DNA of 64,000 bases, taken from positions 20,567-84,566 of the forward strand of contig JANMYS010000037.1 of NCBI GenBank assembly GCA_031382385.1, given 5' to 3'. This document shows positions 14,526-34,266 of the stretch, one piece after another. Source of the DNA: Gemmatimonadota bacterium. Lineage in GTDB: Bacteria; Gemmatimonadota; Gemmatimonadetes; Gemmatimonadales; GWC2-71-9. Within the stretch, counting starts at the first letter, position 1. Each line of letters starts with the position of its first letter. The notes beneath the pieces were generated by a model. That model worked only from the letters and a program-made list of their open reading frames with translations, was not told where the DNA came from and searched no databases. A program made the position numbers and the translations under genes.

Positions 14526-15952
14526 CCAAGGGACTTATCTGCGGGCTGGCGATGCTCTTGCTGGCCGCTCCGCTCACCGCCCAGACCGGCGTGCAATCTC
14601 GCGTGATCGGCGCACTCGACACCCGCCTGGTGCAGCCCGACTGCAAGCTCGATGGGGCGGGCGATTTTCGCATCGCCAGCGGGAAGACCTATCTCAAGAC
14701 CGGGATTGAAGGCAGCGGAGACCAATCCAATCGCACCAACGGATTGAAGAATGGCGTCCGCGTCATCACCGAGGCCATGTCCACCGCCGGACAGGGCAAG
14801 AACCCCGCGGCCTGGTATTACCTTGGCCGGATCTATCTGCAGCAGGGGGACCTCGTCGGCGCGGACTCCGCGTTCACCCGTGCGGAGGAGCTTGCCCCTG
14901 CGTGCAAGGCCGACATCGCCAAGTATCGCCATCGCGCCTGGGTGGCACTGGTGTCCGCCGCTGGCACCTTTCTTCAGGCCAAGCAGGATGATTCCGTCCT
15001 GACGCTGGCGCGGGCGGCGAATCAGATTGAACGGATCCAGCCCGTCGCCTTCTTCTACATGGGGGCCGTCTTCGACGGTCGCGGGCAGGCGGACAGCGCC
15101 CTGGTGTACTTCGGTCGGGCCGCCGCCACGCAACCCACCGAGCCGGCGATGGTCAAGCAGCGCGACAACTCGATCTACCGTCATGCCAAGGCGTTGCTGG
15201 ATGCCGGGCGCGCCGCTGAGGCTGCGGCGGCCTTTCGCCGCTACGTGGCGGCCAAGCCCGAGGATCTCGATGGCAAGAAGGGACTGCTTCTCGCGTTCCG
15301 GGCCGCTGGCATGCCGGACAGCGCGTCGATGATCGAGGCGCAGCTGGTCAGCGCCAGCTCGACCGGGCCGGAGGGCGGCAACCTCTCTGAGGGCGAGCTG
15401 TTTGACATCGGTGCCAAGCAATACAACGACAAGGAGTATGCGGCGGCGGCGGCCACCTTTGGGCGGATCATCAGCCTCAATCCGAACAACCACGACGCCG
15501 TGTCGGCGGCGGCGAATGCCTATCTCGCGCTCAACGACGGCCCGAAGCTCGCTATCACCGCCGAGCAGCTGATCGCGATCGAGCCGCTCTCATATTACGC
15601 CCACTCGTTGCGGGTTCAGGGCTACAAGCTTGCCGGCGACACGGACAAGCTGATCACGGCGGTTGTCGAGCGTGAGGCGCTGCAGGTGGATCTCGCGATC
15701 GACAACTTCCAGCGGGCCCCGGAGCGCGCGACTCTGACGGGCAAGGTGACTGGCCGTGAGCCTCGCGATGAGAACAACAAGCTGATCCCGGTCAAGGCCG
15801 TCACGATCCTCATCGAGTTCCTGGGCCAGGGTGGTACGGTCGTCACAACCGGGGAGGCCGAGCTTCCCGCGCTCAAGGTGGGGGAGACGCAGCCATTCTC
15901 CGTATCGGGCAAGGGCGCTGGGATCAAGTTCTGGCGCTATAGAGTGAAGTAG
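14522..15952 (+). CDS. Secreted TPR-repeat protein with C-terminal beta domain
   Basis: Sec signal ending PLTA-Q; TPR-like helices (AWYYLGRIY, AFFYMGAVF). Confidence 0.75.
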   Translation: MTKGLICGLAMLLLAAPLTAQTGVQSRVIGALDTRLVQPDCKLDGAGDFRIASGKTYLKTGIEGSGDQSNRTNGLKNGVRVITEAMSTAGQGKNPAAWYYLGRIYLQQGDLVGADSAFTRAEELAPACKADIAKYRHRAWVALVSAAGTFLQAKQDDSVLTLARAANQIERIQPVAFFYMGAVFDGRGQADSALVYFGRAAATQPTEPAMVKQRDNSIYRHAKALLDAGRAAEAAAAFRRYVAAKPEDLDGKKGLLLAFRAAGMPDSASMIEAQLVSASSTGPEGGNLSEGELFDIGAKQYNDKEYAAAAATFGRIISLNPNNHDAVSAAANAYLALNDGPKLAITAEQLIAIEPLSYYAHSLRVQGYKLAGDTDKLITAVVEREALQVDLAIDNFQRAPERATLTGKVTGREPRDENNKLIPVKAVTILIEFLGQGGTVVTTGEAELPALKVGETQPFSVSGKGAGIKFWRYRVK

Positions 15953-15978
15953 TCGCTGGTTGGCCAGCAGGCTCACCG

Positions 15979-16010
15979 AGCGCCCCGGCAGTGCTGCCGG
16001 GGCGCTTTGT
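15979..16010 (+). terminator. Intrinsic terminator-like hairpin
   Basis: 12-bp stem AGCGCCCCGGCA/TGCCGGGGCGCT followed by TTGT. Confidence 0.7.
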
Positions 16011-16016
16011 CTGTCC

Positions 16017-16043
16017 GGGAACCGGGGACAGGCTGCGGGCGTT
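16017..16043 (+). promoter_or_regulatory. ECF promoter P1
   Basis: GGGAACC-N16-CGTT, 40 nt upstream of small ORF 16084. Confidence 0.75.
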
Positions 16044-16083
16044 TCCTCCGCAGCCCCTGAGATTCTCGTGACCGGAGCCGACG

Positions 16084-16236
16084 ATGGTTCGCTCACCTTT
16101 CGCGCGCCGCCTGATTCGCACCGCGATCCCGCTGCGCTACAAGGTCCAGCGTGCCAGAGTCCTTGCGATCCTGGCGCGGTGGTCCAGCTCGGTGGACGGT
16201 GGCCTGCATACCGGCCCGGCCCCGCAGTTCCCATAG
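16084..16236 (+). CDS. Unannotated 50-aa basic small protein
   Basis: GGAG RBS, ATG 16084, MVRSPFARRLIRTAIPLRYKVQRARVLAILARWSSSVDGGLHTGPAPQFP; follows P1. Confidence 0.5.
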   Translation: MVRSPFARRLIRTAIPLRYKVQRARVLAILARWSSSVDGGLHTGPAPQFP

Positions 16237-16305
16237 CGCCCGAGCATCGGCGGGACCCCAGGGCTCGCAAGCACCTCGGGGAGGCGGCCCGAAGGCCAGC
16301 CAGGT

Positions 16306-16332
16306 GGGAACCTCGGCGGGGGCTCGGACGTT
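16306..16332 (+). promoter_or_regulatory. ECF promoter P2 (putative autoregulatory)
   Basis: GGGAACC-N16-CGTT upstream of the sigma gene. Confidence 0.78.
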
Positions 16333-16461
16333 GACAGTTCGAGGGCGTCGGCGCGCCCGGTAGGGATTGCCGAGTGCGGTCCTCCGGGTGCACCCTTCCG
16401 TGCAACGGCGCGACCGTCTCTTCCAGCACCCCCGAACCCGGACTGGTCCGATGGAGGATTC

Positions 16462-17160
16462 GTGATACTGCTGCATCTGGCCGGAACCCACATGGCGACG
16501 GCCTCAGGCCACCTCGGCATCTCTCTGGCCCTTGTGGCGGGAGTCGTCGGTACCCAGCCGGCCAAGTCTCGTTCGGACGCGGGAAGTTATGAGGCGCTGC
16601 TGGTGGCTCTGCTCGACAGCGCCTACAGGACGGCACTGCATCTCACCCGCAATGCAGCCGATGCCGAGGATCTGGTTCAGGATGCCGCGCTGCTGGCTTC
16701 GCGCGGCTTCGCATCATACGAGCAGGGCAGCAACTTCAAGGCGTGGTTCTTCCGGATTCTCACCAATGCGTTCTACAGCAAGTACCGGAAAAGGAAGCGG
16801 GAAGGAGTGCAGATGGAGCTGCAGGATACGCCCGAGCTCTACCTCTATTGCCAGACTGCGGCCGCGGGACTGCATGCGGAAAGCGAGAATCCCGCCGCGC
16901 TCGTCATGGACCAGCTGGACGGAGAGCTGATCGGGACGGCGATTGATGCCCTCCCGGACGACTACCGGGTGGTCGCAACGCTCTACTTCATTCAGGACTT
17001 CTCGTATCAGGAGATCGCCGAAGTACTCGAGATCCCGGTGGGGACGGTCCGGTCTCGGCTGCACCGGGGTCGACGGATACTGCAGCGGGCATTGTGGCAG
17101 CTGGCGCAGGATCGCGGCATTGTCGACGAACTCACGCAGGCCAGGGGAGGTGACGCATGA
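16462..17160 (+). CDS. ECF sigma-70 factor (SigR/SigH-like)
   Basis: DAEDLVQD, NFKAWFFRILTN, FSYQEIAEVLEIPVGTVRSRLHRGR; GGAGG RBS. Confidence 0.95.
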   Translation: MILLHLAGTHMATASGHLGISLALVAGVVGTQPAKSRSDAGSYEALLVALLDSAYRTALHLTRNAADAEDLVQDAALLASRGFASYEQGSNFKAWFFRILTNAFYSKYRKRKREGVQMELQDTPELYLYCQTAAAGLHAESENPAALVMDQLDGELIGTAIDALPDDYRVVATLYFIQDFSYQEIAEVLEIPVGTVRSRLHRGRRILQRALWQLAQDRGIVDELTQARGGDA

Positions 17161-17420
17161 GCGCCATGGGCCCGACGCGGCTGACCTGCGAGGAGGTGTT
17201 CGGACGGTTGGATGACTTTATTGACCACGAACTCACGGTGGAAGAGTTGCGGCTGGTCGAGGAACACCTGCGCACCTGTGCCGCCTGCGCCAGCGAGCAC
17301 CGGTTCGAGTCCCGGGTCATCTCGGACATTCGCTCGAAGCTCTCCCGCATCGCAGCGCCTCCCTCCCTGCGGGAGGATCTGCTGAAGCGACTGGCCGAGG
17401 AACGCGGAGGCCCGGGCTAG
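17157..17420 (+). CDS. Soluble zinc-binding anti-sigma factor (ZAS, RsrA/RshA-like)
   Basis: C...LDDFIDHEL...HLRTCAAC (HxxxCxxC); ATGA overlap with sigma; no TM helix. Confidence 0.92.
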   Translation: MSAMGPTRLTCEEVFGRLDDFIDHELTVEELRLVEEHLRTCAACASEHRFESRVISDIRSKLSRIAAPPSLREDLLKRLAEERGGPG

Positions 17421-18238
17421 GGCCGCGAGGGAACGGGAAGCGCCAGGCGGTCGATGAGCCCGGGGCTGACGCCGACCCCTTCCAGGAATTTCACCGGCAG
17501 CGCGGGAACGGCTGTCAGGGTCTCCATGTCGATGGCGGAACGGTCGGCGTGATTCACCTCCGTGAGGCCCCGAGCGGCGGCCAGTGTGGGACAGGCCGCG
17601 AAGACGGTCCGGCCAATGGTCGCATCCGTGAAATCGGCGCCGGAGAGTTGAGTGGCATGCAGCAGGCCCCAGGAAAGATCTGCATGCCGCAGCTTCGCCC
17701 CGGTCAGATCGGTGCCCGTGAGGCTGGCGTTGGCCAGCATGGCACCGGTGAAATCGGCGCCGGCCAGGGCGCTGTGGTTGAGCGTCGCCTCGGTGAGGTC
17801 GGTGCCGGTGAACCGGGCCAGGGGCAGGGAGGTGTGGGCCAGTGAGGCGCGTTCCATGGTCGCGCCGCTGAAGTCCGGTGCCCGGCCGAGCGAGTAGGCG
17901 AGCTTGGCGGTAATGCGGGTCAGGTCGGCGTCCCGCAGCCAGGTCCCGGTGAGATTGACGCCGAGCATGCGGGCGTCCGTCAGGTTGGCCCCGTCCAGCA
18001 CTGCGTCGGTCAGGTCCGCGCCACTCAGGTCCGCACCGTTCAGGTTCGCCCCCCGCAGGTTCGCGCCGCGCAGGTGTGTCGAGCAGAGATCGGCCCCTCG
18101 CAGATCGGCTCCGCTCAAGTCCATCCCCGCCAGATCGCCGTAGAGCAGCACGACTCCTGGGAGCACCGCACCGGCCAGGGAATTCCCCCCGGTCTCGAAC
18201 AGCACGTCACCCGTCTCACGATGCCGAATCTGTCCCAT
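17417..18238 (-). CDS. Pentapeptide-repeat protein
   Basis: Long run of A(D/N)Lxx repeats (ADLRG ADLCS, ANLRG ANLNG ADLSG). Confidence 0.92.
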   Translation of the reverse strand: MGQIRHRETGDVLFETGGNSLAGAVLPGVVLLYGDLAGMDLSGADLRGADLCSTHLRGANLRGANLNGADLSGADLTDAVLDGANLTDARMLGVNLTGTWLRDADLTRITAKLAYSLGRAPDFSGATMERASLAHTSLPLARFTGTDLTEATLNHSALAGADFTGAMLANASLTGTDLTGAKLRHADLSWGLLHATQLSGADFTDATIGRTVFAACPTLAAARGLTEVNHADRSAIDMETLTAVPALPVKFLEGVGVSPGLIDRLALPVPSRP

Positions 18239-18288
18239 GGTTCTCCCCGCCGGTTGTCGAAGTTTCTAACATATCCCGGAATTCACTG

Positions 18289-18315
18289 GGGAACCATCCC
18301 GCACGCCGGTGAGTT
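18289..18315 (+). promoter_or_regulatory. ECF promoter P3
   Basis: GGGAACC-N16-AGTT upstream of the ZAS-like ORF and glucosidase. Confidence 0.72.
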
Positions 18316-18415
18316 ATGGCGTGGAGGCCCGGGGGGCCTCAAGGCGGACCGCGCAGGTTCCCTGCGCCGGGGCGATCGAGTCCCGGCTGAATCACGACCG
18401 AGGCAGGGACAGCGA

Positions 18416-18697
18416 ATGGACCATGCAAGACCGAGCAAATGCACCGCAGGGCGTTGCGGCATGACAGGGCGGGACGATTCTGACACCAGCGGACGTCAGC
18501 AGTGGGACGCACAGAGGGAGCTCGACGACTGTGCGGCATGCGCTCGGGCAGCGCGCCTCGAGCAGACCCTCTGGCGGGTAGTGCGGGCGCGCATGCGCGA
18601 AGTGCGAACTCCCGAAGCGTTCGTCACTCGCCTCCGCCTCATGATCGCTGCCGAACAGGCCATCACACACGACTGGCTCGTGGGAGAGAACTCATGA
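18416..18697 (+). CDS. Degenerate anti-sigma (ZAS-like) paralog
   Basis: ELDDCAACARAARLE...RMREVRTPEAF aligns with HLRTCAACASEHRFE...KLSRIAAPPSL of 17157; ATGA overlap with the next gene; start may be 18461. Confidence 0.65.
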   Translation: MDHARPSKCTAGRCGMTGRDDSDTSGRQQWDAQRELDDCAACARAARLEQTLWRVVRARMREVRTPEAFVTRLRLMIAAEQAITHDWLVGENS

Positions 18698-21429
18698 AAC
18701 GAGATCATGCAGAAGCCGAGCGCCTCCGCGAAACGACGGCCGGCAGCGCAGCCTGGAAGCGGTGGGGGCCGTACCTCTCGGAACGGCAGTGGGGCACTGT
18801 CCGGGAGGACTACAGCGGCTCTGGCACGGCATGGGATTCATTTCCCCACGACCACGCGCGGAGTCGCGCCTACCGCTGGGGCGAGGATGGCCTCGCGGGC
18901 TTCTCGGATGCCGAGCAGCTGCTCTGCCTCGGTCTCGCCTTGTGGAATGGCCGGGATCCGATCCTCAAGGAGCGGCTCTTTGGCCTGACCAACAGCGAGG
19001 GGAACCACGGGGAGGACGTCAAGGAGCTGTACTACTTCCTCGACGCCACACCCACCCACAGCTACAACCGGATGCTCTACAAGTACCCGCAGGCGGCGTT
19101 CCCCTACGCCGATCTGCTGGAAGAGAACCGTCGCCGGGGCATTGCCGGGCTGGAGTACGAGCTGATTGACACGGGAGCTTTGGCGGAGAATCGCTACTTC
19201 GAAGTCGAGGTCGAGTACGCCAAGCGGTCGCCGGAGGCGCTCCACCTGACGCTGACCATCCACAACCGCGGACCGGCGGTGGCGACGCTGCATGTCCTGC
19301 CCCAGCTCTGGTTCCGCAACACCTGGTCGTGGACCCAAGGGGCCGTGCGTCCGATGCTCAGCCAGGGCGGGCCTGGAGTCGTTGTGGCCGAACATGAGCG
19401 GCTTGGCCGGCTGGCATGGACGGTCGAGGGCGCGGCGCCGCTGATGTTCACCGAGAATGAGACGAATGTTCGCCGACTTTACGGCGTGGACCGGCCCGGT
19501 TACTGCAAGGACGGCTTTCACGAGTTTGTCGTCGACGGCCGGACCGATGCGATCAACCCGGCGCACGTGGGCACCAAGGCCGCCGCGCACATCGTCCTTG
19601 AGATCCCGGCCGGATCGTCCCGTCAGGTGCGGGTGCAGCTCAGCCCCGAGGGTGACGCAACTACCTGGCCGGCGCATGACCAGGTGGTGGCATCCCGGCG
19701 CAAGGAGGCCGATGCCTTCTTCGCCGATCTGCAGGCGGATCTCGCCGACCCCGATGCGCGGATGGTCCAGCGTCAGGCCATCGCGGGCATGCTGTGGAGC
19801 AAGCAGTTCTTCCACTACGATCTCCCAAGCTGGCTCGACGGGGATCCCGCCCAGCCGGCACCACCGCCGGAGCGACGCCACGGCCGGAACAGCGAGTGGC
19901 GCCACCTGAACAACGCCGACATCATCTCGATGCCGGACACGTGGGAGTATCCCTGGTACGCGGCATGGGATCTCGCCTTCCACTGCATCCCGCTCGCCCT
20001 GGTCGACCCCGAGTTCGCCAAGGAGCAGCTGGTGCTGCTGACGCGCGAATGGTACATGCATCCCAACGGGCAGCTGCCGGCGTACGAATGGGCATTCGGC
20101 GACGTGAACCCGCCGGTGCATGCGTGGGCCACCTGGCGGGTCTACCAGATGGACCGCAATAGCCGGGGCGGGAAGGGCGATCTCGCCTTCCTGGAACGGG
20201 TCTTCCACAAGCTGATGCTGAACTTTACCTGGTGGGTAAACCGCAAGGATGCCCAGGGCCGGAATGTGTTCCAGGGCGGGTTTCTCGGCCTCGACAACAT
20301 CGGCGTGTTTGATCGCAGCGCTCCACTGCCGACCGGCGGTTACATCAATCAGGCGGATGGCACGGCCTGGATGGCGATGTACAGCCTCAATCTCATGCGG
20401 ATCGCGCTGGAGCTGGCCGAGCACAATCACGTCTATGAAGACATCGCCACCAAGTTCTTCGAGCACTTCCTGCATATCGCCGAGGCAATGACCAACATCG
20501 GCGACGAGGGTGTCGGGCTGTGGGACACGGAGGATGAGTTCTTCTATGATGTGCTCAACACCCCGGACAATCGGCTGATTCCGCTCCGGGTGCGGTCAAT
20601 GGTCGGACTGATCCCGCTCTTCGCCGTGGAGGTCATCGACCAGGAGCTGCTCGACAAGCTGCCCGGATTCGCCCGGCGATTGAAGTGGTTCCTGGACTAC
20701 CGTCCTGAACTGGCGGATCTCGTGTCCCGCTGGACCACGCCAGGCCAGGGAGAGCGGCGATTGCTCTCCCTGTTGCGGGGCCATCGGATGAAGCAGCTGC
20801 TGCGTCGGATGCTGGACGAAAGCGAGTTCCTGTCGGATTTCGGGATTCGCGCACTCTCCAAACACCATGAGCGCGAGCCCTACACCTTCGATGTCATGGG
20901 CTCGGAGCTCTCGGTGCGTTACCAGCCGGCGGAATCGGACTCCGGCCTGTTCGGCGGCAATTCCAACTGGCGCGGCCCGATCTGGTTCCCGGTTAACTAC
21001 CTGCTGATCGAATCGCTGCAGAAGTTCCACTACTACTACGGCGACAGCTTCCGGGTGGAATGCCCGGTCGGGTCGGGAACGATGCTGTCGCTCAGCGAGG
21101 TCGCCGACGAGCTGTCCCATCGCATGGCCCGCCTCTTTCTCCGGGGGGCTGACGGCCGACGGCCCGTGCTGGGCAATGACCCGCAGCTGCAGCAGGATCC
21201 GCACTTCCGGGATCTGGTCCTGTTCCACGAGTACTTCCACGGCGACACCGGCCGCGGGGTGGGCGCCTCGCACCAGACGGGATGGACCGGGCTGATCGCC
21301 AAGTTGCTGCAACCAAAGCGCTGCCCGATCACCGGCCACATGCTCGACCTCACCACCCGGATGCAGCAGCGTGGCGCGGTTGCGTCCGGGATACCAATCG
21401 CGGAGGGATTGGTCGTCGCGGGAACCTGA
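18694..21429 (+). CDS. MGH1-like (GH63-related) glucosidase
   Basis: [73 protein letters not shown]. Confidence 0.9.
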
Positions 21430-21446
21430 GAGGGACCCGATGCATT
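21420..21446 (+). promoter_or_regulatory. ECF promoter P4
   Basis: GGGAACC-N16-CATT spanning the glucosidase stop, upstream of the 44-aa ORF. Confidence 0.65.
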
Positions 21447-21489
21447 CTAGGCGCATGATGGATTGGCGATTCACCGGCCGGAGGGAATC

Positions 21490-21624
21490 ATGCGCGACAT
21501 CAAACCTGCTCTGGAATTCCTGTCCCTTGCGCTGGGCGATGAGGTCCCTCGCATCGCCCGGCGCGCCGCCCTCCTGACCGCGAGCCTGCTGGTCCTTGCC
21601 ACCATCGCCTGGATGGGATTGTGA
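21490..21624 (+). CDS. Unannotated 44-aa small membrane protein
   Basis: GGAGG RBS; MRDIKPALEFLSLALGDEVPRIARRAALLTASLLVLATIAWMGL; TGATG coupling to the next gene. Confidence 0.65.
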   Translation: MRDIKPALEFLSLALGDEVPRIARRAALLTASLLVLATIAWMGL

Positions 21625-23615
21625 TGCTCTCGGCCGCACCGCGGCTCGAGGCCGAGTGGCTCGAAGCGGATGGTCTCGGAGGATTTGCCTCCGGGACGGT
21701 AGGTGGCTGGCGGACCCGCCGATACCACGGCCTGCTCATTCCCGCCGTTTCGCCGCCGTCCGGGCGGGCGCTTCTCGTGGGCGGGCTCGAAGTGCATCTC
21801 GAGACACCGACGGAGCGGTTTCCGCTCAGTGCCCAGCGATTTTCGCCCGGCGTGACCGCCCCAGAGGGAACGACCTACCTCGCCTCGTTCGAGCACGAAC
21901 CGTGGCCCACCTGGATCTGGTCATTGCCGGGAGGCATCCGGGTTGCACACGAGTTGTTCCTGCCACATGGGATGCCGGCCACGGTGCTGCGCTGGCGGGT
22001 CAGCGGGGCGCCCAGGGGGACACGACTCAGCGTGCGCCCCTTCCTGGCTGGCCGCGACTCGCATGCCCTGCACTACGAGAATCCCGATTTCCGCTTCGAT
22101 GTGATCGGCGAAGGGGAGCGGCACGCCTGGCAGCCCTACGCGGCCCTCCCGGCCGTACACAGCCTGGCCAACGCCGGATATCACCACGAGCCGCACTGGT
22201 ATCGCCGCTTCCTGCTGGAAGAGGAGCGAGCCCGCGGGTTCGATCATCTCGAGGATCTCGGCACTCCCGGCGTGCTGGGTTGGGATGTCACATCGGAGGA
22301 TGCCGTCTGGGTGCTGAGCGCAGGCGGGCTGCCGGGCACGGAGGGACTCCAGGCCGGTAAGGCGCTGACGGTCGCGAACCGGCTGCGTGACCGGGAGTTG
22401 CGCCGGCGCAAGAGCTTCGCCTCGCCGCTTCACCGGGCGGCGGATGCCTACATCGTCGCGCGCGGGTCCGGCAAGACGATCATCGCCGGGTATCCCTGGT
22501 TCACCGATTGGGGGCGAGACACCTTCATCGCCCTCCGCGGTCTCTGCCTGGCGGGGGGCCGGCTCGATGACGCTCGGGACATCCTCGTCGAGTGGGCCGG
22601 CGCCGTGTCGGAAGGGATGCTGCCCAACCGTTTCGTGGAACAGGGAGACGCGCCAGAGTTCAACGCGGTCGATGCCTCCCTCTGGTATGTGATTGCCGTG
22701 CATGAGTTCCTGGAGGAGATGAAAGCCGCCAGCCGGCGCGTCGCCCCGGCGGACCGGGCGCGACTATCGGCTGCGGCGGACGCGATACTGGAGGGGTACG
22801 CCCGCGGCACCCGGTTCGGTATCCGGATGGATGATGACGGGTTGCTGAGTGCCGGCGTGGCCGGTGTGCAGCTGACCTGGATGGATGCCCGGATTGGCGA
22901 CTGGGTTGTCACACCGCGGATCGGCAAGCCGGTTGAAGTCCAGGCGCTCTGGCTGAATGCGTTGCGGATTGGCGCACAGCGCGACGACCGGTGGGCCCGC
23001 CTTCATGACCGCGCCCTCGCTTCGTTCCGCCAGCGCTTCTGGAACGAATCGGCCCGGTGCCTCCATGACGTGATCGACTGCGATCATGTCCCGGGGACAG
23101 TCGATGCTTCGATCCGGCCCAATCAGCTCTTCGCGGTCGGCGGACTCCCCTTCCCGCTGCTGGAGGGCGCACTCGCCCGGCAGATCGTGGACCGCGTCGA
23201 GGCCGACCTCTGGACGCCGCTCGGGCCCCGCAGCCTGGCGCCTGGCAGCGAGGGATATGCCCCGCATTACGTCGGGGGTCCGCGCGAGCGCGACGGTGCG
23301 TACCACCAGGGGACGGTCTGGCCGTGGGTGGCCGGGCCCTTCATCGAAGCTTGGATCCGGGTGCGTGGCGGTGGAGCCGACGCCGCCCGGGAGGCCGGAG
23401 CACGATTCTTCGCGCCGTTGCTGGAGCATCTGGAGCGAGCGGGGCTCGGGCATGTCTCCGAGATCGCCGATGCGGAGAAGCCCCACACCCCAGCCGGCTG
23501 TCCGTTCCAGGCCTGGTCGGTGGGCGAACTGCTCCGGATCGATCGCGTCCTGCGCGCCGCAGAATCCACCGACGCGCAGACCAGGCGGGCCGTCGCGGGC
23601 GGTACTACTGAATGA
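21621..23615 (+). CDS. Amylo-alpha-1,6-glucosidase (glycogen debranching, archaeal type)
   Basis: EWLEADGLGGFASGT, RTRRYHGLL, IAGYPWFTDWGRDTFI, LTWMDA, YHQGTVWPW, GCPFQAWSV; start GTG 21621 or ATG 21624. Confidence 0.92.
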   Translation: MMLSAAPRLEAEWLEADGLGGFASGTVGGWRTRRYHGLLIPAVSPPSGRALLVGGLEVHLETPTERFPLSAQRFSPGVTAPEGTTYLASFEHEPWPTWIWSLPGGIRVAHELFLPHGMPATVLRWRVSGAPRGTRLSVRPFLAGRDSHALHYENPDFRFDVIGEGERHAWQPYAALPAVHSLANAGYHHEPHWYRRFLLEEERARGFDHLEDLGTPGVLGWDVTSEDAVWVLSAGGLPGTEGLQAGKALTVANRLRDRELRRRKSFASPLHRAADAYIVARGSGKTIIAGYPWFTDWGRDTFIALRGLCLAGGRLDDARDILVEWAGAVSEGMLPNRFVEQGDAPEFNAVDASLWYVIAVHEFLEEMKAASRRVAPADRARLSAAADAILEGYARGTRFGIRMDDDGLLSAGVAGVQLTWMDARIGDWVVTPRIGKPVEVQALWLNALRIGAQRDDRWARLHDRALASFRQRFWNESARCLHDVIDCDHVPGTVDASIRPNQLFAVGGLPFPLLEGALARQIVDRVEADLWTPLGPRSLAPGSEGYAPHYVGGPRERDGAYHQGTVWPWVAGPFIEAWIRVRGGGADAAREAGARFFAPLLEHLERAGLGHVSEIADAEKPHTPAGCPFQAWSVGELLRIDRVLRAAESTDAQTRRAVAGGTTE

Positions 23616-24472
23616 CCGGTCGGTCTGTATTTGGAGAGCGCGAACTTCCCCGATGGATACAGCACCTGCCGGAGTACGCGGCGGAGGCCTTCGGTTTGGG
23701 CCTCTTCATGGTCTCGGCGTGTGGGTTCGCGTTGCTCTTCTTTCATCCGGCATCTCCGGCGCTTCAGTGGATACCGGGAGCGCTTGGCCGGAACCTGGCC
23801 ATGGGGGCGGCGATGGCAGTCACCCTGCTGGTGAATGTCTACGGCCCCTGGGGACAACGCTCCGGAGCGCATCTCAATCCCGCGGTGACGCTCACCTTCT
23901 ATCGGCTCGGCAAGGTGGCCGGTGGTGACCTCCCGGGCTATGTGGTGGCGCAGTTCCTCGGCGGCCTGGCGGGCACCGGGATCGCCGTACTCATCTTCGG
24001 GGACCTGCTGGCGGATCCTTCGGTGAACTACGTCGCGACGGTGCCGGGACCGGATGGTGTTGTGGTGGCCTTCCTCGCTGAACTGGCCATCACCTTCGTC
24101 CTGATGCTGGTCATCCTGCAGGTTGCTTCGACGGCAGCGCTTTCACGATACACCGGCGTCTTCGCCGCTGTCCTCGTGGGGCTGTACATCGCATTCGAGG
24201 CGCCCTACTCGGGCATGAGCATGAATCCCGCGCGTACGGTGGGCTCCGCCGTCTACGCCCATCTCTGGACCGGGCTCTGGCTGTATTTCGTTGCCCCGCC
24301 ACTCGGCATGCTCTCGGCGGCCGAAGTCTTCCTCCGCCTCCGCGGAACCGGGGCCAGACTCTGTGCCAAGCTGTATCACTCCAGTCGGGTGCGCTGCATT
24401 TTCTGCGGGCAGGAGCCGGAAGCGCAGCCGGCCTCCGTTCTCCGGGAACCACTACGCCACGTCAGGCATTAG
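23612..24472 (+). CDS. MIP/aquaporin family channel
   Basis: SGAHLNPAVT and MSMNPAR (two NPA motifs), six TM helices, Cys-rich tail. Confidence 0.93.
   Translation: MTGRSVFGERELPRWIQHLPEYAAEAFGLGLFMVSACGFALLFFHPASPALQWIPGALGRNLAMGAAMAVTLLVNVYGPWGQRSGAHLNPAVTLTFYRLGKVAGGDLPGYVVAQFLGGLAGTGIAVLIFGDLLADPSVNYVATVPGPDGVVVAFLAELAITFVLMLVILQVASTAALSRYTGVFAAVLVGLYIAFEAPYSGMSMNPARTVGSAVYAHLWTGLWLYFVAPPLGMLSAAEVFLRLRGTGARLCAKLYHSSRVRCIFCGQEPEAQPASVLREPLRHVRH
24444..24470 (+). promoter_or_regulatory. ECF promoter P5
   Basis: GGGAACC-N16-CATT at the aquaporin 3' end, upstream of the DM13 gene. Confidence 0.65.
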
Positions 24473-24532
24473 AGCCCCTGAGCGGGCCACACACGGTGGC
24501 CCGCAGGACGCACTGACTCGGGAGGCAGGACA

Positions 24533-24922
24533 ATGCGCGGAATGACGAAGGCTCTGACGATGCTGGTGGCGCTGGTCGCGGTGACCACGGCGGCGGCGGC
24601 GCCGGTGAAGACCTTCATCAGCAAGCCGTTTGCTGGTGTGAAGGCCAACACCGGCACGGTGACGGCGACGGTCGATGGTGGCAAGATCACCCTGAAGGTC
24701 TCGGATGACTTTGTCATCCCCGATACCCCGGCTCCCAGCTGGCAGATCGTGGACTCCAAGGGCAACACCTACCTGCTCAACCAGATGCGGATCAAAGGCG
24801 ACAAGACCAACCGCATGATCACCCTGCCGAGCTACATCAAGGACATCGCTAAGGTGCAGGTGTGGTGTTCGTTCGCCGAAGTGGTGCTGGGCGAGACCAG
24901 CTTCGATACCATCGTCAAGTAA
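24533..24922 (+). CDS. Secreted DM13-like protein
   Basis: Signal peptide; VQVWCSFAEVVLGETSF resembles the DM13 WC motif; strong codon bias. Confidence 0.7.
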   Translation: MRGMTKALTMLVALVAVTTAAAAPVKTFISKPFAGVKANTGTVTATVDGGKITLKVSDDFVIPDTPAPSWQIVDSKGNTYLLNQMRIKGDKTNRMITLPSYIKDIAKVQVWCSFAEVVLGETSFDTIVK

Positions 24923-24989
24923 CTGACGTCTACTGTACCGCCGGTCGGGCGTTCCCGGCCGGCGGTCGTGTTTCCGGGAGGGAACGACA

Positions 24990-25862
24990 ATGCGACAGTT
25001 CACACTGCTGGGCCTTGGCCTGGCGCTGGGCGGGATCGTCTCGCCAGCCTCCGCCCAGGTGGCGGAACACAAGAGTCTCACGATCGAGGGCGCCAGGAAC
25101 GTGATCGCGGCGGCCGTCACCTACGCGCGGACCAAGGCCGGAACCGGCGTGATCGCCGTCGTCGACGATGGCGGCAACCTGATGGCGCTCGAACGGCTCG
25201 ATGGCACCTTCGCCGCCGGGGCGAACATCTCGATCGGCAAGGCACGCACCGCCGCACTGTTCAAGAAGCCGACCCGGTTCTTCGAGGAGCTGATCAACAA
25301 GGGTCGGACCGCCATGACGGCGGTGAACGACTTCACCCCGCTGATCGGCGGCGTGCCGATCCTGGTCGACGGCCAGATCGTCGGGGCCATCGGCGTGAGT
25401 GGCGCGGCTTCGGCTGCTGAAGATGAGGAAGTGGCAATGGCCGGGGCGGCCGGGGTCGGAACCCAGGTCTCGATGGCCGGGCCGGTCCATACGATGAGCG
25501 TCAACTATTTCACGCGCGACCAGGTCAACGCCGCGTTCGCCAAGGGCAGCGTCCTGGTCGACGGGACCGGGCGCAACTACATGGTGCATGCCAGCCGTCG
25601 CGACAAGGCGGGCCAGGCCGAAGTGCATGTGCTCGACACCGACGTCATCTACGTGCAGGAGGGCGCCGCCACCTTCGTGACCGGCGGCATGGTCATGGGC
25701 GGGAAGACGATCGAGCCGAACGAAGTTCGCGGCGATTCTATCAGCGGCGGCGAGACCCGCCGGATTGTGAAGGGCGACGTCATCACCGTGCCGAACGGTA
25801 CACCACACTGGTTCCAGGACGTGAAGGGCACGCTGACGTACTACGTCGTCAAGGTCCGGTAG
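24990..25862 (+). CDS. Secreted GlcG/HbpS heme-binding domain fused to a cupin
   Basis: IAVVDDGGNL..LERLDG, KARTA, GGVPI..GAIGVSG; cupin EVH...D and VPNGTPHWF. Confidence 0.85.
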   Translation: MRQFTLLGLGLALGGIVSPASAQVAEHKSLTIEGARNVIAAAVTYARTKAGTGVIAVVDDGGNLMALERLDGTFAAGANISIGKARTAALFKKPTRFFEELINKGRTAMTAVNDFTPLIGGVPILVDGQIVGAIGVSGAASAAEDEEVAMAGAAGVGTQVSMAGPVHTMSVNYFTRDQVNAAFAKGSVLVDGTGRNYMVHASRRDKAGQAEVHVLDTDVIYVQEGAATFVTGGMVMGGKTIEPNEVRGDSISGGETRRIVKGDVITVPNGTPHWFQDVKGTLTYYVVKVR

Positions 25863-25868
25863 GGCACC

Positions 25869-27509
25869 ATGCGACGGGTACTCCTCACCCTCGCGGCCGT
25901 CACGGCGCTCGGCTCCTCCGGGATCCGGGCGCAGGTGACTGGTGACGCCCCATACGGCAAGCCGGCAGCAATCATCAACCTCGGTACCAGCAGCGGGGCA
26001 GGGCTGGTGCGGGGCCAGTGGCGTTACAGTGACGCGCAGTTCACCGAGGTCGAGCACCATGCTCCCGGCCGGGACCTGCGCCCCTCTGGCCCACCCAACC
26101 GGACCCACGACATCTCCCCCCATGCCGGCACAGCGGACTTCGATGATTCCGCCTGGAGCACCTTTCCGGCCGAATCGATCGAGGCACGTCGCGGCAACGG
26201 CAAGTTCAGCTTCAACTGGTACCGGATCAATCTCACGATTCCGGCCCGGGTGGGGAAGCACGATCCGACCGGCATGACCGTCGTCTTCGAGCTCGTCGTG
26301 GATGATTACGCCGAGGTCTGGGTCAACGGAAAGCTGCCAGTCACGCTCGGTCAGACCGGCGGGCAGTTGGTCAAGGGCTTCAACGCGCCGAATCGCGTGG
26401 TTCTCACCCGGGATGCGCGGCCGGGCCAGCAGTTCCAGCTGGCCATCTTCGGCATGAATGCCCCGGTCTCCAACCCGCCGGTGAATTTCATCTGGATCCG
26501 TTCCGCGACGCTGGATTTCTATACCGCGGCGCAGGCGCGGGTGGGGCATGACGTCGAGGTCAAGTTCACCCGGCACGACCCCGCATTCGACGCGCTTGTG
26601 TCACCCGGGGCCGGGGTCGAGAAACTGGCCGGCGGGTTCGAGTTCCTCGAGGGGCCGGTCTGGGTCCGCGAGGGTGGCTACTTGCTCTTCAGCGATCCGA
26701 ACACGAACACCATCTATCGCTGGTCGCCGGACGGTCAGGTGAGCGTCTATCGGACCAAGAGCGGCTACGCCGGGCTCGATATCGGCGACTACCATCAGCC
26801 AGGTTCGAATGGGCTGGCACTCGACTCCGCCGGTCGGGTGGTGATCGATCAGCACGGCAATCGTCGGGTCATCCGGGTCGAACGGACGGGCGCGGTGACG
26901 GTGCTCGCCGATCGCTACGAGGGCAAGCGCCTCAACAGCCCCAACGATCTGGTGTTCCGGTCCGATGGCAGCCTCTACGTCACCGATCCGCCCTTCGGAC
27001 TGCCCGGCGTCTTCGCAGACCCGGCGAAGGAAACGCCGTGGAGCGGCGTCTACCGGATTCACGACGGACAGGTGACCCTGCTGACGAAGGAACTCAGCGG
27101 CCCGAACGGGATCGCGTTCTCCCCCGATGAGAAGACGCTCTACGTCGATAACTGGGATCCGAAGCGCAAGGTGATCATGCGCTACGATGTGAACGCCGAC
27201 GGCACGATCGCCAACGGCCGGGTCTTCTTCGACATCACGCAGTCAGTCCCCGGGGATGATGCCTGGGACGGCATCAAGGTGGATCGTGACGGAAACGTCT
27301 ACGCCGCCGGGCCTGCGGGGATTTACGTCCTCTCGCCGGCCGGCAGACTGCTCGGCACGATCACGCTGCCGGAGCATGTGGCGAATTTTGCCTGGGGTGA
27401 TGGCGATCTGCAGACGCTCTACATCACCGCCTCCACCGGTCTGTACCGGCTGCGCATGAACCTCCCCGGCGCCGTGGCGTTCGGCTCGACCCAGGCGGCC
27501 ACCCGATGA
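25869..27509 (+). CDS. Secreted SMP-30/gluconolactonase with N-terminal sugar-binding-like domain
   Basis: Signal peptide; NWYR and VDDYAEVWVNG jelly-roll; EGPVW, GSNGL, NSPNDL and DGIKVD motifs. Confidence 0.88.
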   Translation: MRRVLLTLAAVTALGSSGIRAQVTGDAPYGKPAAIINLGTSSGAGLVRGQWRYSDAQFTEVEHHAPGRDLRPSGPPNRTHDISPHAGTADFDDSAWSTFPAESIEARRGNGKFSFNWYRINLTIPARVGKHDPTGMTVVFELVVDDYAEVWVNGKLPVTLGQTGGQLVKGFNAPNRVVLTRDARPGQQFQLAIFGMNAPVSNPPVNFIWIRSATLDFYTAAQARVGHDVEVKFTRHDPAFDALVSPGAGVEKLAGGFEFLEGPVWVREGGYLLFSDPNTNTIYRWSPDGQVSVYRTKSGYAGLDIGDYHQPGSNGLALDSAGRVVIDQHGNRRVIRVERTGAVTVLADRYEGKRLNSPNDLVFRSDGSLYVTDPPFGLPGVFADPAKETPWSGVYRIHDGQVTLLTKELSGPNGIAFSPDEKTLYVDNWDPKRKVIMRYDVNADGTIANGRVFFDITQSVPGDDAWDGIKVDRDGNVYAAGPAGIYVLSPAGRLLGTITLPEHVANFAWGDGDLQTLYITASTGLYRLRMNLPGAVAFGSTQAATR

Positions 27510-28210
27510 GCCCCCGCCACAGGAATGCGCTGCGGTGGGTGCTCCCCGGCGCGCTGGTCGTCCTCGGCGCGGCCCGTCCCGCCGGGGCGCAGGACCCGGT
27601 GCCGCTCTACCCCGGCAACTACAAGGTCATGATCGAGAATGATCGGGTCCGGGTCATGGACTTCCAGCTTCGGCGTGGCGCGCGCGAGGAGATGCACATG
27701 CATCCCGCTCATGTGCTCTACGTCCTGACCGGCTTCCGGATCCGCTTCACCTTTCCCGATGGCACCACGAAGATCCGGGAGACCATGGCGGGCGAGGTAC
27801 TGTACAGCGATGCCGTGATGCACTCGCCCGAGAATATCGGTGATACCGATGCCCACGGCATCCTGGTCGAGCTCAAGCCTCAGGTGACCGGCAGGGGTGC
27901 GGAGATCGACGCAGCCTCATCCCCGCTCACGGCGTTCACCTTCGTCCACGGACTGGCCGGCCAGGGCGACCCCCTGCAATTTCACCTGCTCTCCCTCACC
28001 GCCCCAACGCGCGCCGAGGACGGGGCAATCCGGTACGACCTCTACCGCTCCGTCGAGCGGCCCGACGACTTCCTCCGCCACGAGGTATGGCGCGACAGGG
28101 CGGCACTTGAGGCGCACAAGCAGACTCCTCCGCTTCGTGCCTCCTTTGCCCGGCGCCAGCGGGAGGGGTGGACCACGGCCATCACCCTGTGGCTCCCGGT
28201 GCAGCCATGA
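27506..28210 (+). CDS. Secreted cupin fused to an ABM (antibiotic biosynthesis monooxygenase) domain
   Basis: ENDRVRV, MHMHP, HSPENIG; TRAEDGAIRYDLYR...EVWRDRAALEAH. Confidence 0.8.
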   Translation: MSPRHRNALRWVLPGALVVLGAARPAGAQDPVPLYPGNYKVMIENDRVRVMDFQLRRGAREEMHMHPAHVLYVLTGFRIRFTFPDGTTKIRETMAGEVLYSDAVMHSPENIGDTDAHGILVELKPQVTGRGAEIDAASSPLTAFTFVHGLAGQGDPLQFHLLSLTAPTRAEDGAIRYDLYRSVERPDDFLRHEVWRDRAALEAHKQTPPLRASFARRQREGWTTAITLWLPVQP

Positions 28211-29229
28211 GCCCCGGCCGCCACTATCTGCGGGTTGCTGTGCTCCTGCTCGGGTGCATCACGCCAGCGACGGCTCAGGGCCCCGGTACCCCCTCTGTCG
28301 AGGGGAGGATCACCCGACTGGACCCCCGCTTCGACCGGCTGATCCCCGCCGGAGCCACGCTGGAACTGGTGGTCGATGGGCATGAGTGGGCCGAGGGCCC
28401 GCTGTGGGACCGGAAGGCGGGCTGCCTGCTCTTCTCCGACGTCATTCGCAATACCGCCTACCGGTGGTGTGAGGGCGCCGGAGAGAGCGTCCTGCTCGCC
28501 CACAGCGGCTACACCGGCAGGGAACCGTTCAAGGGCAGGGAACCTGGCTCCAACGGACTCGCCTTCGACCGCGATGGAAGCCTGCTCATGGCGGAACATG
28601 GCGATCGGAGGATCAGCCGACTGGGTGCGGATGGACGGAAGACCACGCTGGTCGACCGATTTGACGGGAAGCGCATCAACAGCCCCAATGACCTGATCGT
28701 GACAGCCGCCGGTGACCTGCTGTTCACCGATCCGCCCTGGGGCTTGCCGCAGTGGTGGGCTGATCCCGGGAAGGAGCTGCCGTTCAGTGGGGTCTATCGC
28801 CTGTCCGCGGCGGGCCGGCTGACCGTCCTCAGCCGTGATTTCCAGGCGCCGAACGGTATCGCCGTGTCGCCCGACGGCCGCACCCTGATCGTGAGCGAGT
28901 CAAAGCCGGAGATCGGCGCGTGGTACGCGTTCACCGTGAATGCCGACGGCTCCCTGACCGGCAAGCGCAGGCTGCTCGACGCGGTGCCCTGGTCCGTGGG
29001 ACGCATGGGGGTACCGGATGGGCTCAAGCTCGATCGGGAGAGTCACATCTTCGGCGGCGGGCCCGGTGGCGTCTATGTGATCGACCCCGACGGCACTCTG
29101 CTCGGTATCATCGAGACCGGGGGGCCGGCCTCCAACACAGTCTGGGGTGGGGACGGCTCGATGCTCTACATCACCTCCGGTGCCCGGATCTTCCGTTTGC
29201 AGACCACTACCCACGGGGCTGGTTGGTAG
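28207..29229 (+). CDS. Secreted SMP-30/gluconolactonase
   Basis: WAEGPLW, LFSD, GSNGL, NSPNDL, TDPPWG and PDGLKLD motifs. Confidence 0.9.
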   Translation: MSPGRHYLRVAVLLLGCITPATAQGPGTPSVEGRITRLDPRFDRLIPAGATLELVVDGHEWAEGPLWDRKAGCLLFSDVIRNTAYRWCEGAGESVLLAHSGYTGREPFKGREPGSNGLAFDRDGSLLMAEHGDRRISRLGADGRKTTLVDRFDGKRINSPNDLIVTAAGDLLFTDPPWGLPQWWADPGKELPFSGVYRLSAAGRLTVLSRDFQAPNGIAVSPDGRTLIVSESKPEIGAWYAFTVNADGSLTGKRRLLDAVPWSVGRMGVPDGLKLDRESHIFGGGPGGVYVIDPDGTLLGIIETGGPASNTVWGGDGSMLYITSGARIFRLQTTTHGAGW

Positions 29230-29236
29230 CTCCTCC

Positions 29237-29262
29237 GGGAACCTCTGCCGGTGCACGGCGTT
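29237..29262 (+). promoter_or_regulatory. ECF promoter P6
   Basis: GGGAACC-N15-CGTT in the gap before the 62-aa ORF and GMC gene. Confidence 0.7.
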
Positions 29263-29284
29263 GAGAGGGCAACAGGAGATACCC

Positions 29285-29473
29285 ATGTCAGCCTCGTTCA
29301 CGCAGCCCGACACACTGCTCGATCACCCCGCTCTTGCGGGCCATACCGTCTTCGTCCGGCGCGGCGGGGATTGGCAGCGCTTCGTCGTGCGCCAGGCCGG
29401 TGGCCTCGTGCCCGACCACTCCCACACCACGCGTTTCGCCAGCTTCGGCTGGCGCACGCCAGCCTGGAGCTGA
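29285..29473 (+). CDS. 62-aa small protein
   Basis: AGGAG RBS; MSASFTQPDTLLDHPALAGHTVFVRRGGDWQRF...WS; ends 2 nt before the GMC start. Confidence 0.6.
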   Translation: MSASFTQPDTLLDHPALAGHTVFVRRGGDWQRFVVRQAGGLVPDHSHTTRFASFGWRTPAWS

Positions 29474-29475
29474 CC

Positions 29476-32135: not shown

Positions 32136-32152
32136 ATTGCGCGGAGGTTCCG

Positions 32153-32605
32153 ATGGCCCTCTCATTCCGGCAGTGCACGATCGACGATGCGGACCAACTC
32201 GCGCTCCTGGTTGAAGCGTGGATCAGGGAAGAGCGACGGCCGGCAAGCCAGCCGATGATCCGCGCCGGCCTGGCCCGGTTTCTCGGCGACAACCATCATG
32301 GGCATGCCTGGATTATCGAGCAGCATGGCGTGCCGGTCGGATATGCCATGCTCGGGATCAGCGCACTGGACCACCATGGCGCACCGCGCGGCTACGTGAC
32401 CGCACTGTACGTCGAGCCGGCCCACCGCCGCCAGGGCATTGGCCCGCGTACCGAGCGGTTCCTGGCCGATGTGACGCGCTGGCTCCAGCTCCCACTCTAT
32501 CAGTTCGGGACCGGCGACGAAGGAAAGCACGCCTCGCTGCTTTTCCGTCCCTGTGGCTTCGGGACCACGCCGTTCACTTCTCTCAATGTACAGGCGGTCG
32601 CATGA
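32153..32605 (+). CDS. GNAT family acetyltransferase (possibly divergent C-terminus)
   Basis: [13 protein letters not shown] motif A; GGAGG RBS. Confidence 0.75.
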
Positions 32606-33768: not shown

Positions 33769-33819
33769 CACAATATTGACAGGGAGACGCGGGGCGGGCG
33801 ACATTACGCGGCACACACT

Positions 33820-33892
<73 letters not shown>

Positions 33893-34266
33893 CTTGATGC
33901 ATCGCCAGCGCCCGGAACCCGCCTCGCCGGATGCCGGGCAGTGTCATTGCCGGGCCGGTCCAGCCGGACGAGCGCGCCCCGCGCCTCTCCGGCTCTTGCC
34001 CACCGTAGCCATCCTGCTCATGATTGTGTCTCGACTCCGTCCCGTTTGAGACAGATGGCGTCTCATCCCGGAATCGGCTAGAATCGGGCACATCTTGCTA
34101 TTACGTTGTCAGGTATAGTGTTACACGCTGGCGCCCGAGCACTTTTCCTGCGGGTCTCTGGGGAATGACGGTGGTCCGGCAGTTGCTTCTCCCCCAGTGG
34201 TCGGCTGACCTCTAATCTTGTTTTGGAAACACACTCAGGTACTACCACGCAACCGGAGCAGATTCG

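What the first reader, a model, noticed from the sequence alone, without database searches (positions are those of the whole stretch)
18416..18697. Second, degenerate anti-sigma copy heads the main operon (possible decoy or feedback brake)
Seen: QRELDDCAACARAARLEQTLWRVVRARMREVRTPEAFVTRLRLMIAAE aligns with the cognate anti-sigma EEHLRTCAACASEHRFESRVISDIRSKLSRIAAPPSLREDLLKRLAEE. The ZAS His is replaced by Glu, and the N-terminal C..LDDFID.EL helix is replaced by a CTAGRC segment. It follows promoter P3 and is coupled by ATGA to the glucosidase. The ORF track hides it at the end of a 207-aa ORF. Inference: a sigma-induced paralog with altered Zn/redox sensing that could shut off or tune the response.
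Basis: partly seen in the sequence, partly recalled or inferred. Interest (0 to 1): 0.72.

Follow-up and report, generated by a model that had tools for sequence, protein, structure and literature searches.

The report
Sensor-less half anti-sigma, likely feedback brake
A soil/sediment-type bacterium keeps a second copy of a stress-switch inhibitor gene that has lost its zinc sensor but kept the two helices predicted to grip the stress sigma factor, so it likely acts as a built-in brake on the stress response; in many relatives it has shrunk to an unannotated protein of about 50 residues.

Summary
The ORF is real: 93 codons, an RsrA-type anti-sigma paralog (TIGR03988 E 3e-5), behind a predicted sigma promoter and overlapping the GH63 start by ATGA. 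His-to-Glu is not conserved (E in 2 of 7 close clusters, otherwise Q or R), and the zinc-binding half evolves near-neutrally (dN/dS 0.78).

What is conserved is the C-terminal helix III-IV pair (pooled dN/dS 0.37, P 1e-7). In the same slot of 21 genus genomes (Gemmatimonadales), 15 carry an open copy: 1 keeps all zinc ligands, 3 are long but degenerate, and 11 are 50-61-residue helix-only proteins. 1 is disrupted and 5 (one clade) have none. A further 48 unannotated mini-proteins exist in metagenomes.

A complex model docks residues 37-85 on the adjacent ECF sigma (score 0.65, best control 0.00), with helix IV on the region-2.2 motif. The pass may come from likeness to solved complexes.

Best reading (0.55): a sigma-induced, redox-blind feedback anti-sigma, working like NepR2 but derived from a ZAS protein. 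Main rival: relaxed decay, since selection on this genome's own copy is weak. Expression and binding are untested.

The parts
18416..18697 (+). Second anti-sigma copy, 93 aa from Met1 (78 aa if started at Met16, position 18461)
   Evidence: orthologs in the same slot; database calls start at Met16
18416..18529 (+). Codons 1-38: eroded remains of ZAS helices I-II; Cys9 at the first-ligand position, Glu35 (18518-18520) at the His position
   Evidence: Colinear with the intact G015 copy; 3 of 22 columns (17-38) invariant in 7 close clusters; no helix before residue 27 and pLDDT about 57 in the model
18530..18541 (+). CxxC (C39-C42), remnant of HxxxCxxC
   Evidence: Kept in 7 of 7 close clusters; absent from all 11 genus mini forms and all 48 metagenome minis
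18569..18655 (+). Codons 52-80: conserved helix III(C)-Pro-helix IV core, the predicted sigma-binding part
   Evidence: Pooled dN/dS 0.37, 8 columns hydrophobic in 15 of 15 genus copies, R57/P66/R72/A78 invariant; interface in the complex model
18290..18315 (+). Predicted promoter GGAAC-N18-GTT for the local ECF sigma
   Evidence: a GGAAC-led site lies ahead of the copy in all 15 genus loci listed; activity untested
18319..18422 (+). Leader identical over 104 nt between G000 and G032; predicted to pair the Met1 ribosome-binding site
   Evidence: Longest identical run in 3044 aligned nt with 271 mismatches, expected count about 0.017; fold z -2.1; not seen in other loci
18694..21429 (+). GH63/MGH1-like glycoside hydrolase, next gene of the operon, start overlaps the copy's stop (ATGA)
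16492..17160 (+). ECF sigma factor, SigH/SigR-like (ORF extends to GTG 16462); predicted target
   Evidence: Pfam sigma r2/r4; best NCBIfam TIGR02947 E 1e-42, below its cut-off
17157..17420 (+). Cognate CHCC zinc anti-sigma (C11, H37, C41, C44)
   Evidence: zf-HC2 E 4e-9; its alignment hits RsrA 5FRF and RsiW 5WUQ; dN/dS 0.04-0.16
17417..18238 (-). Pentapeptide-repeat gene separating the two anti-sigma copies
   Evidence: same position in most genus loci
16307..16332 (+). Predicted autoregulatory promoter of the sigma gene (a second site at 16018-16043)
   Evidence: a GGAAC-N18-GTT site lies ahead of the sigma in most genus loci

Best explanation
This is an old duplicate of the neighbouring zinc anti-sigma that has lost its zinc/redox sensor and likely works as a sigma-induced, redox-blind brake, by way of two conserved helices predicted to bind the ECF sigma.

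Steps:
1. (Shown) It is a paralog, first gene behind a GGAAC-N18-GTT site and coupled to GH63.
2. (Shown) The sensor half drifts or is deleted, while codons 52-80 are under purifying selection across the genus.
3. (Inferred from RsrA) Stress releases the sigma from the cognate CHCC anti-sigma.
4. (Predicted) The sigma transcribes the operon, so the copy is made only after induction.
5. (Predicted) Helix IV covers the region-2.2 surface that binds core RNA polymerase, and helix III contacts sigma4.
6. (Inferred) With no complete zinc site and no helices I-II to rebury these residues, the copy would stay active while the cognate anti-sigma is oxidised, capping or ending the response. Binding would be weaker than the cognate's because the helix-I contact is gone.
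For: Synteny: 15 of 21 genus slots hold an open copy.

Repeated sensor loss: on the locus tree, helix-only or zinc-dead forms occur in four separate places, with the single intact copy nested among them. The 5 copy-less loci form one clade at support 100.

Selection: core dN/dS 0.37 over 7 pairs that share no sequence (P 1e-7) and 0.45 over the 4 closest pairs (P 0.01), against 0.78 for codons 1-51. In 7 close clusters 18 of 29 core columns are invariant against 3 of 22 N-terminal ones (P 6e-4). In a neutral simulation the full core pattern survived in 0.06% of runs at 0.4 substitutions per site (the pattern was defined from these data).

Contact residues: positions equal to RsrA V54, V75 and L79 are hydrophobic in 15 of 15 copies. 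In RsrA, the V54A/L57A and V75A/L79A mutants each weaken sigma binding more than 100-fold (PMC4960319, section 9). Helix 4 carries 12 of the top 14 coevolving contacts, to sigma2 (PMC7406223, passages).

Complex model: score 0.65, best of 3 controls 0.00; the mark was reached by 116 of 157 solved complexes and 2 of 215 mismatched pairs; runs agree in at least 84% of contacts; partner pLDDT at least 77. F69, L73, M76 and I77 touch sigma E59, V62, Q63 and A66.

Precedent for the logic: NepR2 of Sphingopyxis (PMC9303464).
Against: - For this genome's own copy, selection is weak: G000 against G032 gives core dN/dS 0.42 (P 0.2) and whole-ORF 0.69, while the cognate gives 0.06. One other close pair gave 0.68 for the core.
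- One close cluster has P66S.
- The copy departs from the mini consensus PESLRARI (it reads PEAFVTRL).
- The RsrA L57-equivalent is a large hydrophobic residue in only 7 of 15 copies.
- 5 of 21 loci lack the copy and 1 is disrupted, so it is dispensable.
- The complex pass may come from likeness to solved ECF/anti-sigma complexes such as SigW-RsiW; the tool notes that close cousins of true partners pass as well.
- The promoter -10 in this clade (GAGTT, GACTT, CCCTT) departs from the usual GCGTT.
- The sign of the effect (brake or decoy) is not tested.
Confidence: 0.55

Rival explanations
1. Slowly decaying remnant: in this lineage the copy no longer regulates anything. The frame stays open mainly because it feeds ribosomes to GH63 through the ATGA overlap and holds the GH63 ribosome-binding site.
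For: Whole-ORF dN/dS is 0.60-0.77 in the four close pairs, and the G000/G032 core is not significantly below 1 (P 0.2). The tail (codons 81 onward) has 0 synonymous changes at about 24 sites against 9 non-synonymous in three coupled pairs, which points to a nucleotide-level constraint. The copy is lost in one clade and disrupted in G021.
Against: Coupling does not need conserved amino acids. The 8 mini forms that are not coupled to GH63 (7 of them followed by a second promoter-like site) still keep the core, at dN/dS 0.07-0.33 in the four such pairs tested. The core is gap-free with 4 invariant residues over deep branches.
Confidence: 0.22
2. Decoy or antagonist with a positive effect: the helix pair binds the sigma weakly, or binds helices I-II of the cognate anti-sigma, and so hinders re-inhibition and prolongs the response.
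For: In free RsrA, helices III-IV pack on helices I-II (PMC4960319). The copies carry a family-specific change at position 76: hydrophobic in 15 of 15 copies against Arg in 26 of 30 cognates. That could mark a changed partner.
Against: The model places residue 76 and helix IV on the region-2.2 motif of the sigma. Occupying that surface should block polymerase binding (PMC7406223). Binding to the cognate anti-sigma was not modelled.
Confidence: 0.09
3. Dedicated inhibitor of a different sigma: the target is the close paralogous sigma elsewhere in the genome (G000:C84:86973-87599), which has no anti-sigma beside it.
For: The paralog is 49% identical to the local sigma. No anti-sigma profile hit was found in 14 of 14 loci around it and its orthologs.
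Against: There is no co-occurrence. The paralog is present in 4 of the 5 genomes whose slot lacks the copy (G013, G031, G005, G027; G006 unclear). It was not found with this query in G001, G018 and G002, which have the mini form (97, 91 and 74% complete).
Confidence: 0.08
4. One reading: a retuned sensor in which Glu replaces His and the extra cysteines give a different zinc or redox threshold.
For: CxxC is kept in 7 of 7 close clusters, and 5 of 7 have a His two residues before the first Cys. C9 and C14 are shared by G000 and G032.
Against: Glu is present in only 2 of 7, and this copy has Asp, not His, at position 37. The N-terminal half is near-neutral. No helix I in the model. 11 of 15 genus copies have no motif. 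Database calls start at Met16, past C9 and C14.
Confidence: 0.06

Closest known systems
RsrA / RshA zinc anti-sigma (ZAS, CHCC type; class I anti-sigma domain; TIGR03988, PDB 5FRF)
   Same: Common descent and the same register (offset 2). Hydrophobic residues are kept at the RsrA sigma-contact positions 54, 75 and 79. The partner is a SigH/SigR-like sigma.
   Different: No His ligand, helix I gone, below the family cut-off (24.1 against 62.5 bits), no zf-HC2 hit. It is not the gene coupled to the sigma but the first gene of the predicted target operon. Most orthologs are only helices III-IV.
NepR2 of Sphingopyxis granuli, and the NepR paralogs of Methylobacterium and Sinorhizobium (alphaproteobacterial general stress response)
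   Same: A small two-helix second anti-sigma, first gene behind a promoter of its own sigma, giving negative feedback (PMC9303464 abstract and passages; PMC4814048 passages).
   Different: No NepR Pfam hit in 15 of 15 members. It derives from a zinc anti-sigma. A PhyR partner was not looked for. Function here is untested.
RsiW-SigW and other solved class I anti-sigma/ECF complexes (5WUQ)
   Same: Predicted docking mode: helix IV on sigma2, helix III toward sigma4 (PMC7406223).
   Different: The helix-1/sigma4 half of the dual interface is missing.

Membership tests
ZAS zinc anti-sigma (RsrA type) | HxxxCxxC motif | tested here: not met
   ExxxCxxC here; E, Q or R in 7 close clusters; complete in 1 of 15 genus copies
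ZAS zinc anti-sigma (RsrA type) | N-terminal fourth ligand (Cys11 in RsrA) | tested here: inconclusive
   Cys9 has the right spacing if Met1 is used; absent if Met16 is the start, as in 7 of 7 database calls
ZAS zinc anti-sigma (RsrA type) | Profile score above the curated cut-off (zf-HC2, TIGR03988) | tested here: not met
   No Pfam hit; TIGR03988 24.1 bits against cut-off 62.5, E 2.9e-5
Class I anti-sigma domain | Helices I-III bundle plus helix IV | tested here: not met
   The model has helices 27-36, 40-62 and 67-90, none before residue 27, and no bundle support (pTM 0.42); no Foldseek match in PDB
Class I anti-sigma domain | Hydrophobic sigma-contact residues on helices III-IV | tested here: met
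   L52, V55, L73, I77 here; three of the four positions are hydrophobic in 15 of 15 copies, the fourth in 7 of 15
Class I anti-sigma domain | Binds and inhibits its ECF sigma | tested here: inconclusive
   Model passes, 0.65 against 0.00, possibly from likeness to solved complexes; no measurement
ZAS zinc anti-sigma (RsrA type) | Zinc binding and redox-triggered release | not testable with these tools
   Needs biochemistry
NepR | NepR sequence profile | tested here: not met
   No such Pfam hit for any of 15 members at E<=1
NepR | PhyR partner switch | not tested
   No search for PhyR was run
Feedback anti-sigma (NepR2-like logic) | First gene behind a promoter of its own sigma | tested here: inconclusive
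   Motif present and conserved in position; transcription not shown

The most novel reading that the evidence does not exclude
Gemmatimonadales have turned a duplicated zinc anti-sigma into a new family of about 50-residue, sensor-less microprotein anti-sigmas (core motif R..L..V.APESLRARI.AML..E). The sensor half was lost repeatedly and independently, and all intermediates are still visible in genomes, this 93-aa copy being one. That would be a NepR-like two-helix feedback inhibitor arising from a class I anti-sigma domain, and would show that helices III-IV alone suffice to inhibit an ECF sigma.
Probability: 0.45. Interest if true: 0.68.

Novelty: new variant of a known kind. Interest (0 to 1): 0.5.

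Why it matters
Redox-sensing ECF systems of the SigR/RsrA kind are thought to shut off mainly by re-reducing the anti-sigma (PMC4598750, passages). A sigma-induced copy that cannot be switched off by oxidation would be a different shut-off route. The natural series (intact, degenerate, helix-only, absent) gives ready-made constructs to ask which half of the dual anti-sigma interface is enough for inhibition. The 48 mini-proteins have no Pfam family on record, so annotation misses them. Minimal ECF inhibitors would also be useful parts for synthetic circuits. If the rival holds, it is only a well-documented case of modular gene decay.

Tried and rejected
- His-to-Glu as a conserved feature: rejected.
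- The 207-aa ORF as the gene: rejected. Its upstream part overlaps the pentapeptide gene on the other strand, and only the 3' part has homologs.
- Pfam, PDB sequence and Foldseek searches of the copy gave nothing useful. The wider VIA fold search and the protein Atlas look-up gave no result.
- The metagenome-contig scan with P0001 returned 3 loci; all were short chance matches without sigma or GH63 context.
- The genome-contig scan returned 7 loci: 6 were loci already held and 1 was a weak 20-residue match that was not examined.
- Order-wide search with the core profile: 41 of 401 genomes matched. Of 18 further loci inspected (17 outside the genus), most were ordinary anti-sigmas and two looked like noise.
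- Orphan-sigma co-occurrence: no correlation.
- Rfam over 15900-18800: 3 matches, all far below gathering score. Leader folding was unremarkable in the 12 other leaders folded (z -0.4 to 1.0).
- Expression: no RNA holder listed. The one small-share run, laid as contigs, held only distant relatives and did not cover the copy. This is no evidence either way.
- The tree of the 34-column core separates most copies from cognates at only 60-67 support, so a single origin is not established.
- Earlier scan findings: none found.
- Literature searches found no description of a truncated ZAS paralog of this kind. The library lacks most subscription papers, and no supplements were read.

Full report
OBSERVATION. 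18416-18697 (+) translates to 93 residues without a stop. It is the 3' end of a 207-codon GTG ORF, and its stop overlaps the GH63 start as ATGA. The neighbourhood is: ECF sigma (16492-17160), CHCC anti-sigma (17157-17420, zf-HC2), pentapeptide gene on the minus strand, the copy, then GH63, a debranching enzyme, an aquaporin and further genes. GGAAC-N17-19-GTT occurs 16 times in the window against 5.2 by chance (0 of 100 shuffles), including 16018, 16307 and 18290. That this matches the SigR/SigH promoter type is recalled, not tested. Homology to the cognate is supported three ways: BLASTP E 9e-5, TIGR03988 E 2.9e-5 over residues 21-82, and HHalign 97.4%. In the gap-free register Glu35 is at the His position and Cys9 at the first-ligand position. 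The N-terminus is eroded rather than replaced: it is colinear with an intact ortholog. Record titles of kin place the lineage in Gemmatimonadales.

THE SLOT ACROSS THE GENUS. A search of 39 genus genomes gave 30 close matches to the cognate anti-sigma. From loci, the stretch between the pentapeptide gene and GH63 could be read in 21 genomes. The other cognate loci end at a contig edge or are arranged differently and were left out. Of the 21: 2 have the long His-less form (G000, and G032 at 80% identity); 1 has all four ligands (G015); 1 is long with three ligands lost (G034, read from two contigs that differ slightly); 11 have a 50-61-residue protein of only the C-terminal helices; 1 is disrupted (G021); and 5 have none. 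On a tree of cognate plus pentapeptide proteins, the 5 copy-less loci are one clade (100). Sensor loss appears in four separate places, and the intact copy is nested among them (midpoint root, no formal test of ancestral states). Outside the genus, 76 GH63 loci were inspected, taken from the 100 places listed. Four had an eroded copy directly ahead of GH63 (two only at E about 1e-3), and 5 had an intact anti-sigma there with no sigma in the fetched stretch.

WHAT IS CONSERVED. In 7 clusters close to P0001 (itself included), the His position is E, Q, Q, R, E, Q, Q. CxxC is kept 7 of 7. Invariant columns are 3 of 22 for residues 17-38 and 18 of 29 for residues 52-80 (P 6e-4). All 7 are called from Met16. 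Nei-Gojobori counts give pooled dN/dS 0.37 for codons 52-80 over 7 pairs sharing no sequence (P 1e-7), 0.45 for the 4 closest pairs (P 0.01), and 0.78 for codons 1-51 (P 0.39). Cognate anti-sigmas run at 0.04-0.16, so constraint on the copy is real but much weaker. For G000 against G032 alone it is not significant (0.42, P 0.2). Among the 15 position-defined copies the core has no gaps, 8 columns are hydrophobic in all, and R57, P66, R72 and A78 are invariant. Position 76 is hydrophobic in all 15, where 26 of 30 cognates have Arg. A profile of six mini forms retrieved 56 proteins: 48 of 36-71 residues with no Pfam on record and no CxxC, and 8 ordinary zf-HC2 proteins. Their near-invariant APESLRARI motif is inflated by the word-based search, and their genomic context could not be checked.

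MECHANISM. [quoted passage not shown] Across class I anti-sigmas, helix 4 binds sigma regions 2.1-2.2 and helix 1 binds sigma4 (PMC7406223: passages). The copy keeps the first set (L52, V55, L73, I77) and has lost helix I (AlphaFold model). A complex prediction of sigma 26-216 with residues 37-85 scored 0.65 against a best control of 0.00. The mark was reached by 116 of 157 solved and 2 of 215 mismatched pairs, counts that hold only roughly with my own alignments; runs agree in at least 84% of contacts and partner pLDDT is at least 77. Helix IV lies on E59, V62, Q63 and A66, and helix III touches F166 and L197. Like complexes are solved (RsiW, 5WUQ), so this shows likeness and not binding. The inferred model is a sigma-induced inhibitor that oxidation cannot switch off, limiting the response (0.55). 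Rivals: decaying, coupling-maintained remnant (0.22); decoy with positive effect (0.09); inhibitor of the orphan paralogous sigma on C84 (0.08, no co-occurrence); retuned sensor (0.06).

COMPARISON. By descent it is a ZAS/RsrA paralog, but it fails membership (motif, score, bundle). In logic it resembles NepR2 of Sphingopyxis, a stress-induced second anti-sigma shown to give negative feedback (PMC9303464: abstract and passages), and the NepR paralogs discussed in PMC4814048 (passages). It has no NepR profile match. PMC4598750 (passages) was used for general background. Searches found no report of a helix-only ZAS paralog; the library is incomplete and supplements were not read.

VERDICT. A real feature and a new variant of a known kind. 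The interesting object is the family of sensor-less half anti-sigmas, of which this ORF is a long intermediate. The His-to-Glu change itself is incidental. Expression and function are untested. Interest 0.5.

Noticed in passing
window 18319-18422: Leader identical over 104 nt between G000 and G032, the longest identical run in 3 kb at 9% divergence. The GTTCCCTGC segment is predicted to pair with the Met1 ribosome-binding site, and by eye could alternatively close a GCGCAGG/CCTGCGC hairpin. Possibly a translational switch; not conserved in other loci, no Rfam match.
   Followed up: partly
window 18423-18464: Out-of-frame 13-codon ORF whose stop overlaps the Met16 ATG as ATGA; also open in G032 with a GTG start. 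May be chance.
   Followed up: no
window 18656-18697 and the matching tails of L002, L004, L007, L018, L020: No synonymous change at about 24 sites against 9 non-synonymous in the tail of copies coupled to GH63, suggesting nucleotide-level constraint around the GH63 start.
   Followed up: partly
G000:C84:86973-87599 (L162, L166): Orphan paralog of the local sigma (49% identical) with no anti-sigma nearby; orthologs in about 13 other genus genomes, also without one.
   Followed up: partly
L016 (G029:C167): A close relative (cognate anti-sigma 95% identical) has the anti-sigma followed directly by a frameshifted GNAT-like gene and the dehydrogenase gene, so the block from the pentapeptide gene to the glyoxalase gene is missing at this locus.
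   Followed up: no
window 18694-33900: The predicted regulon (GH63, debranching enzyme, aquaporin, HbpS/cupin, gluconolactonase-like, GMC oxidoreductase, glyoxalase, then a GNAT-like and a dehydrogenase-like gene named by eye) has further promoter-like sites at 29238 and 32062 and ends at a tRNA-like sequence. It looks more like a general or osmotic stress set than a thiol-redox set.
   Followed up: no
L105, L107, L112, L115, L121, L126, L130: Seven loci outside the genus have the order anti-sigma, sigma, GH63, the reverse of the usual sigma then anti-sigma.
   Followed up: no
L066, L125, L134, L136, L138, L144: Intact CHCC anti-sigma genes directly ahead of GH63 with no sigma in the fetched stretch; possibly independent second copies or the starting state of the erosion series.
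   Followed up: partly
L035 (G014) and L029, L032: Apparent frameshifts: the cognate anti-sigma in G014 goes out of frame after the zinc motif, and GH63 is split in L029 and L032; may be assembly errors.
   Followed up: no
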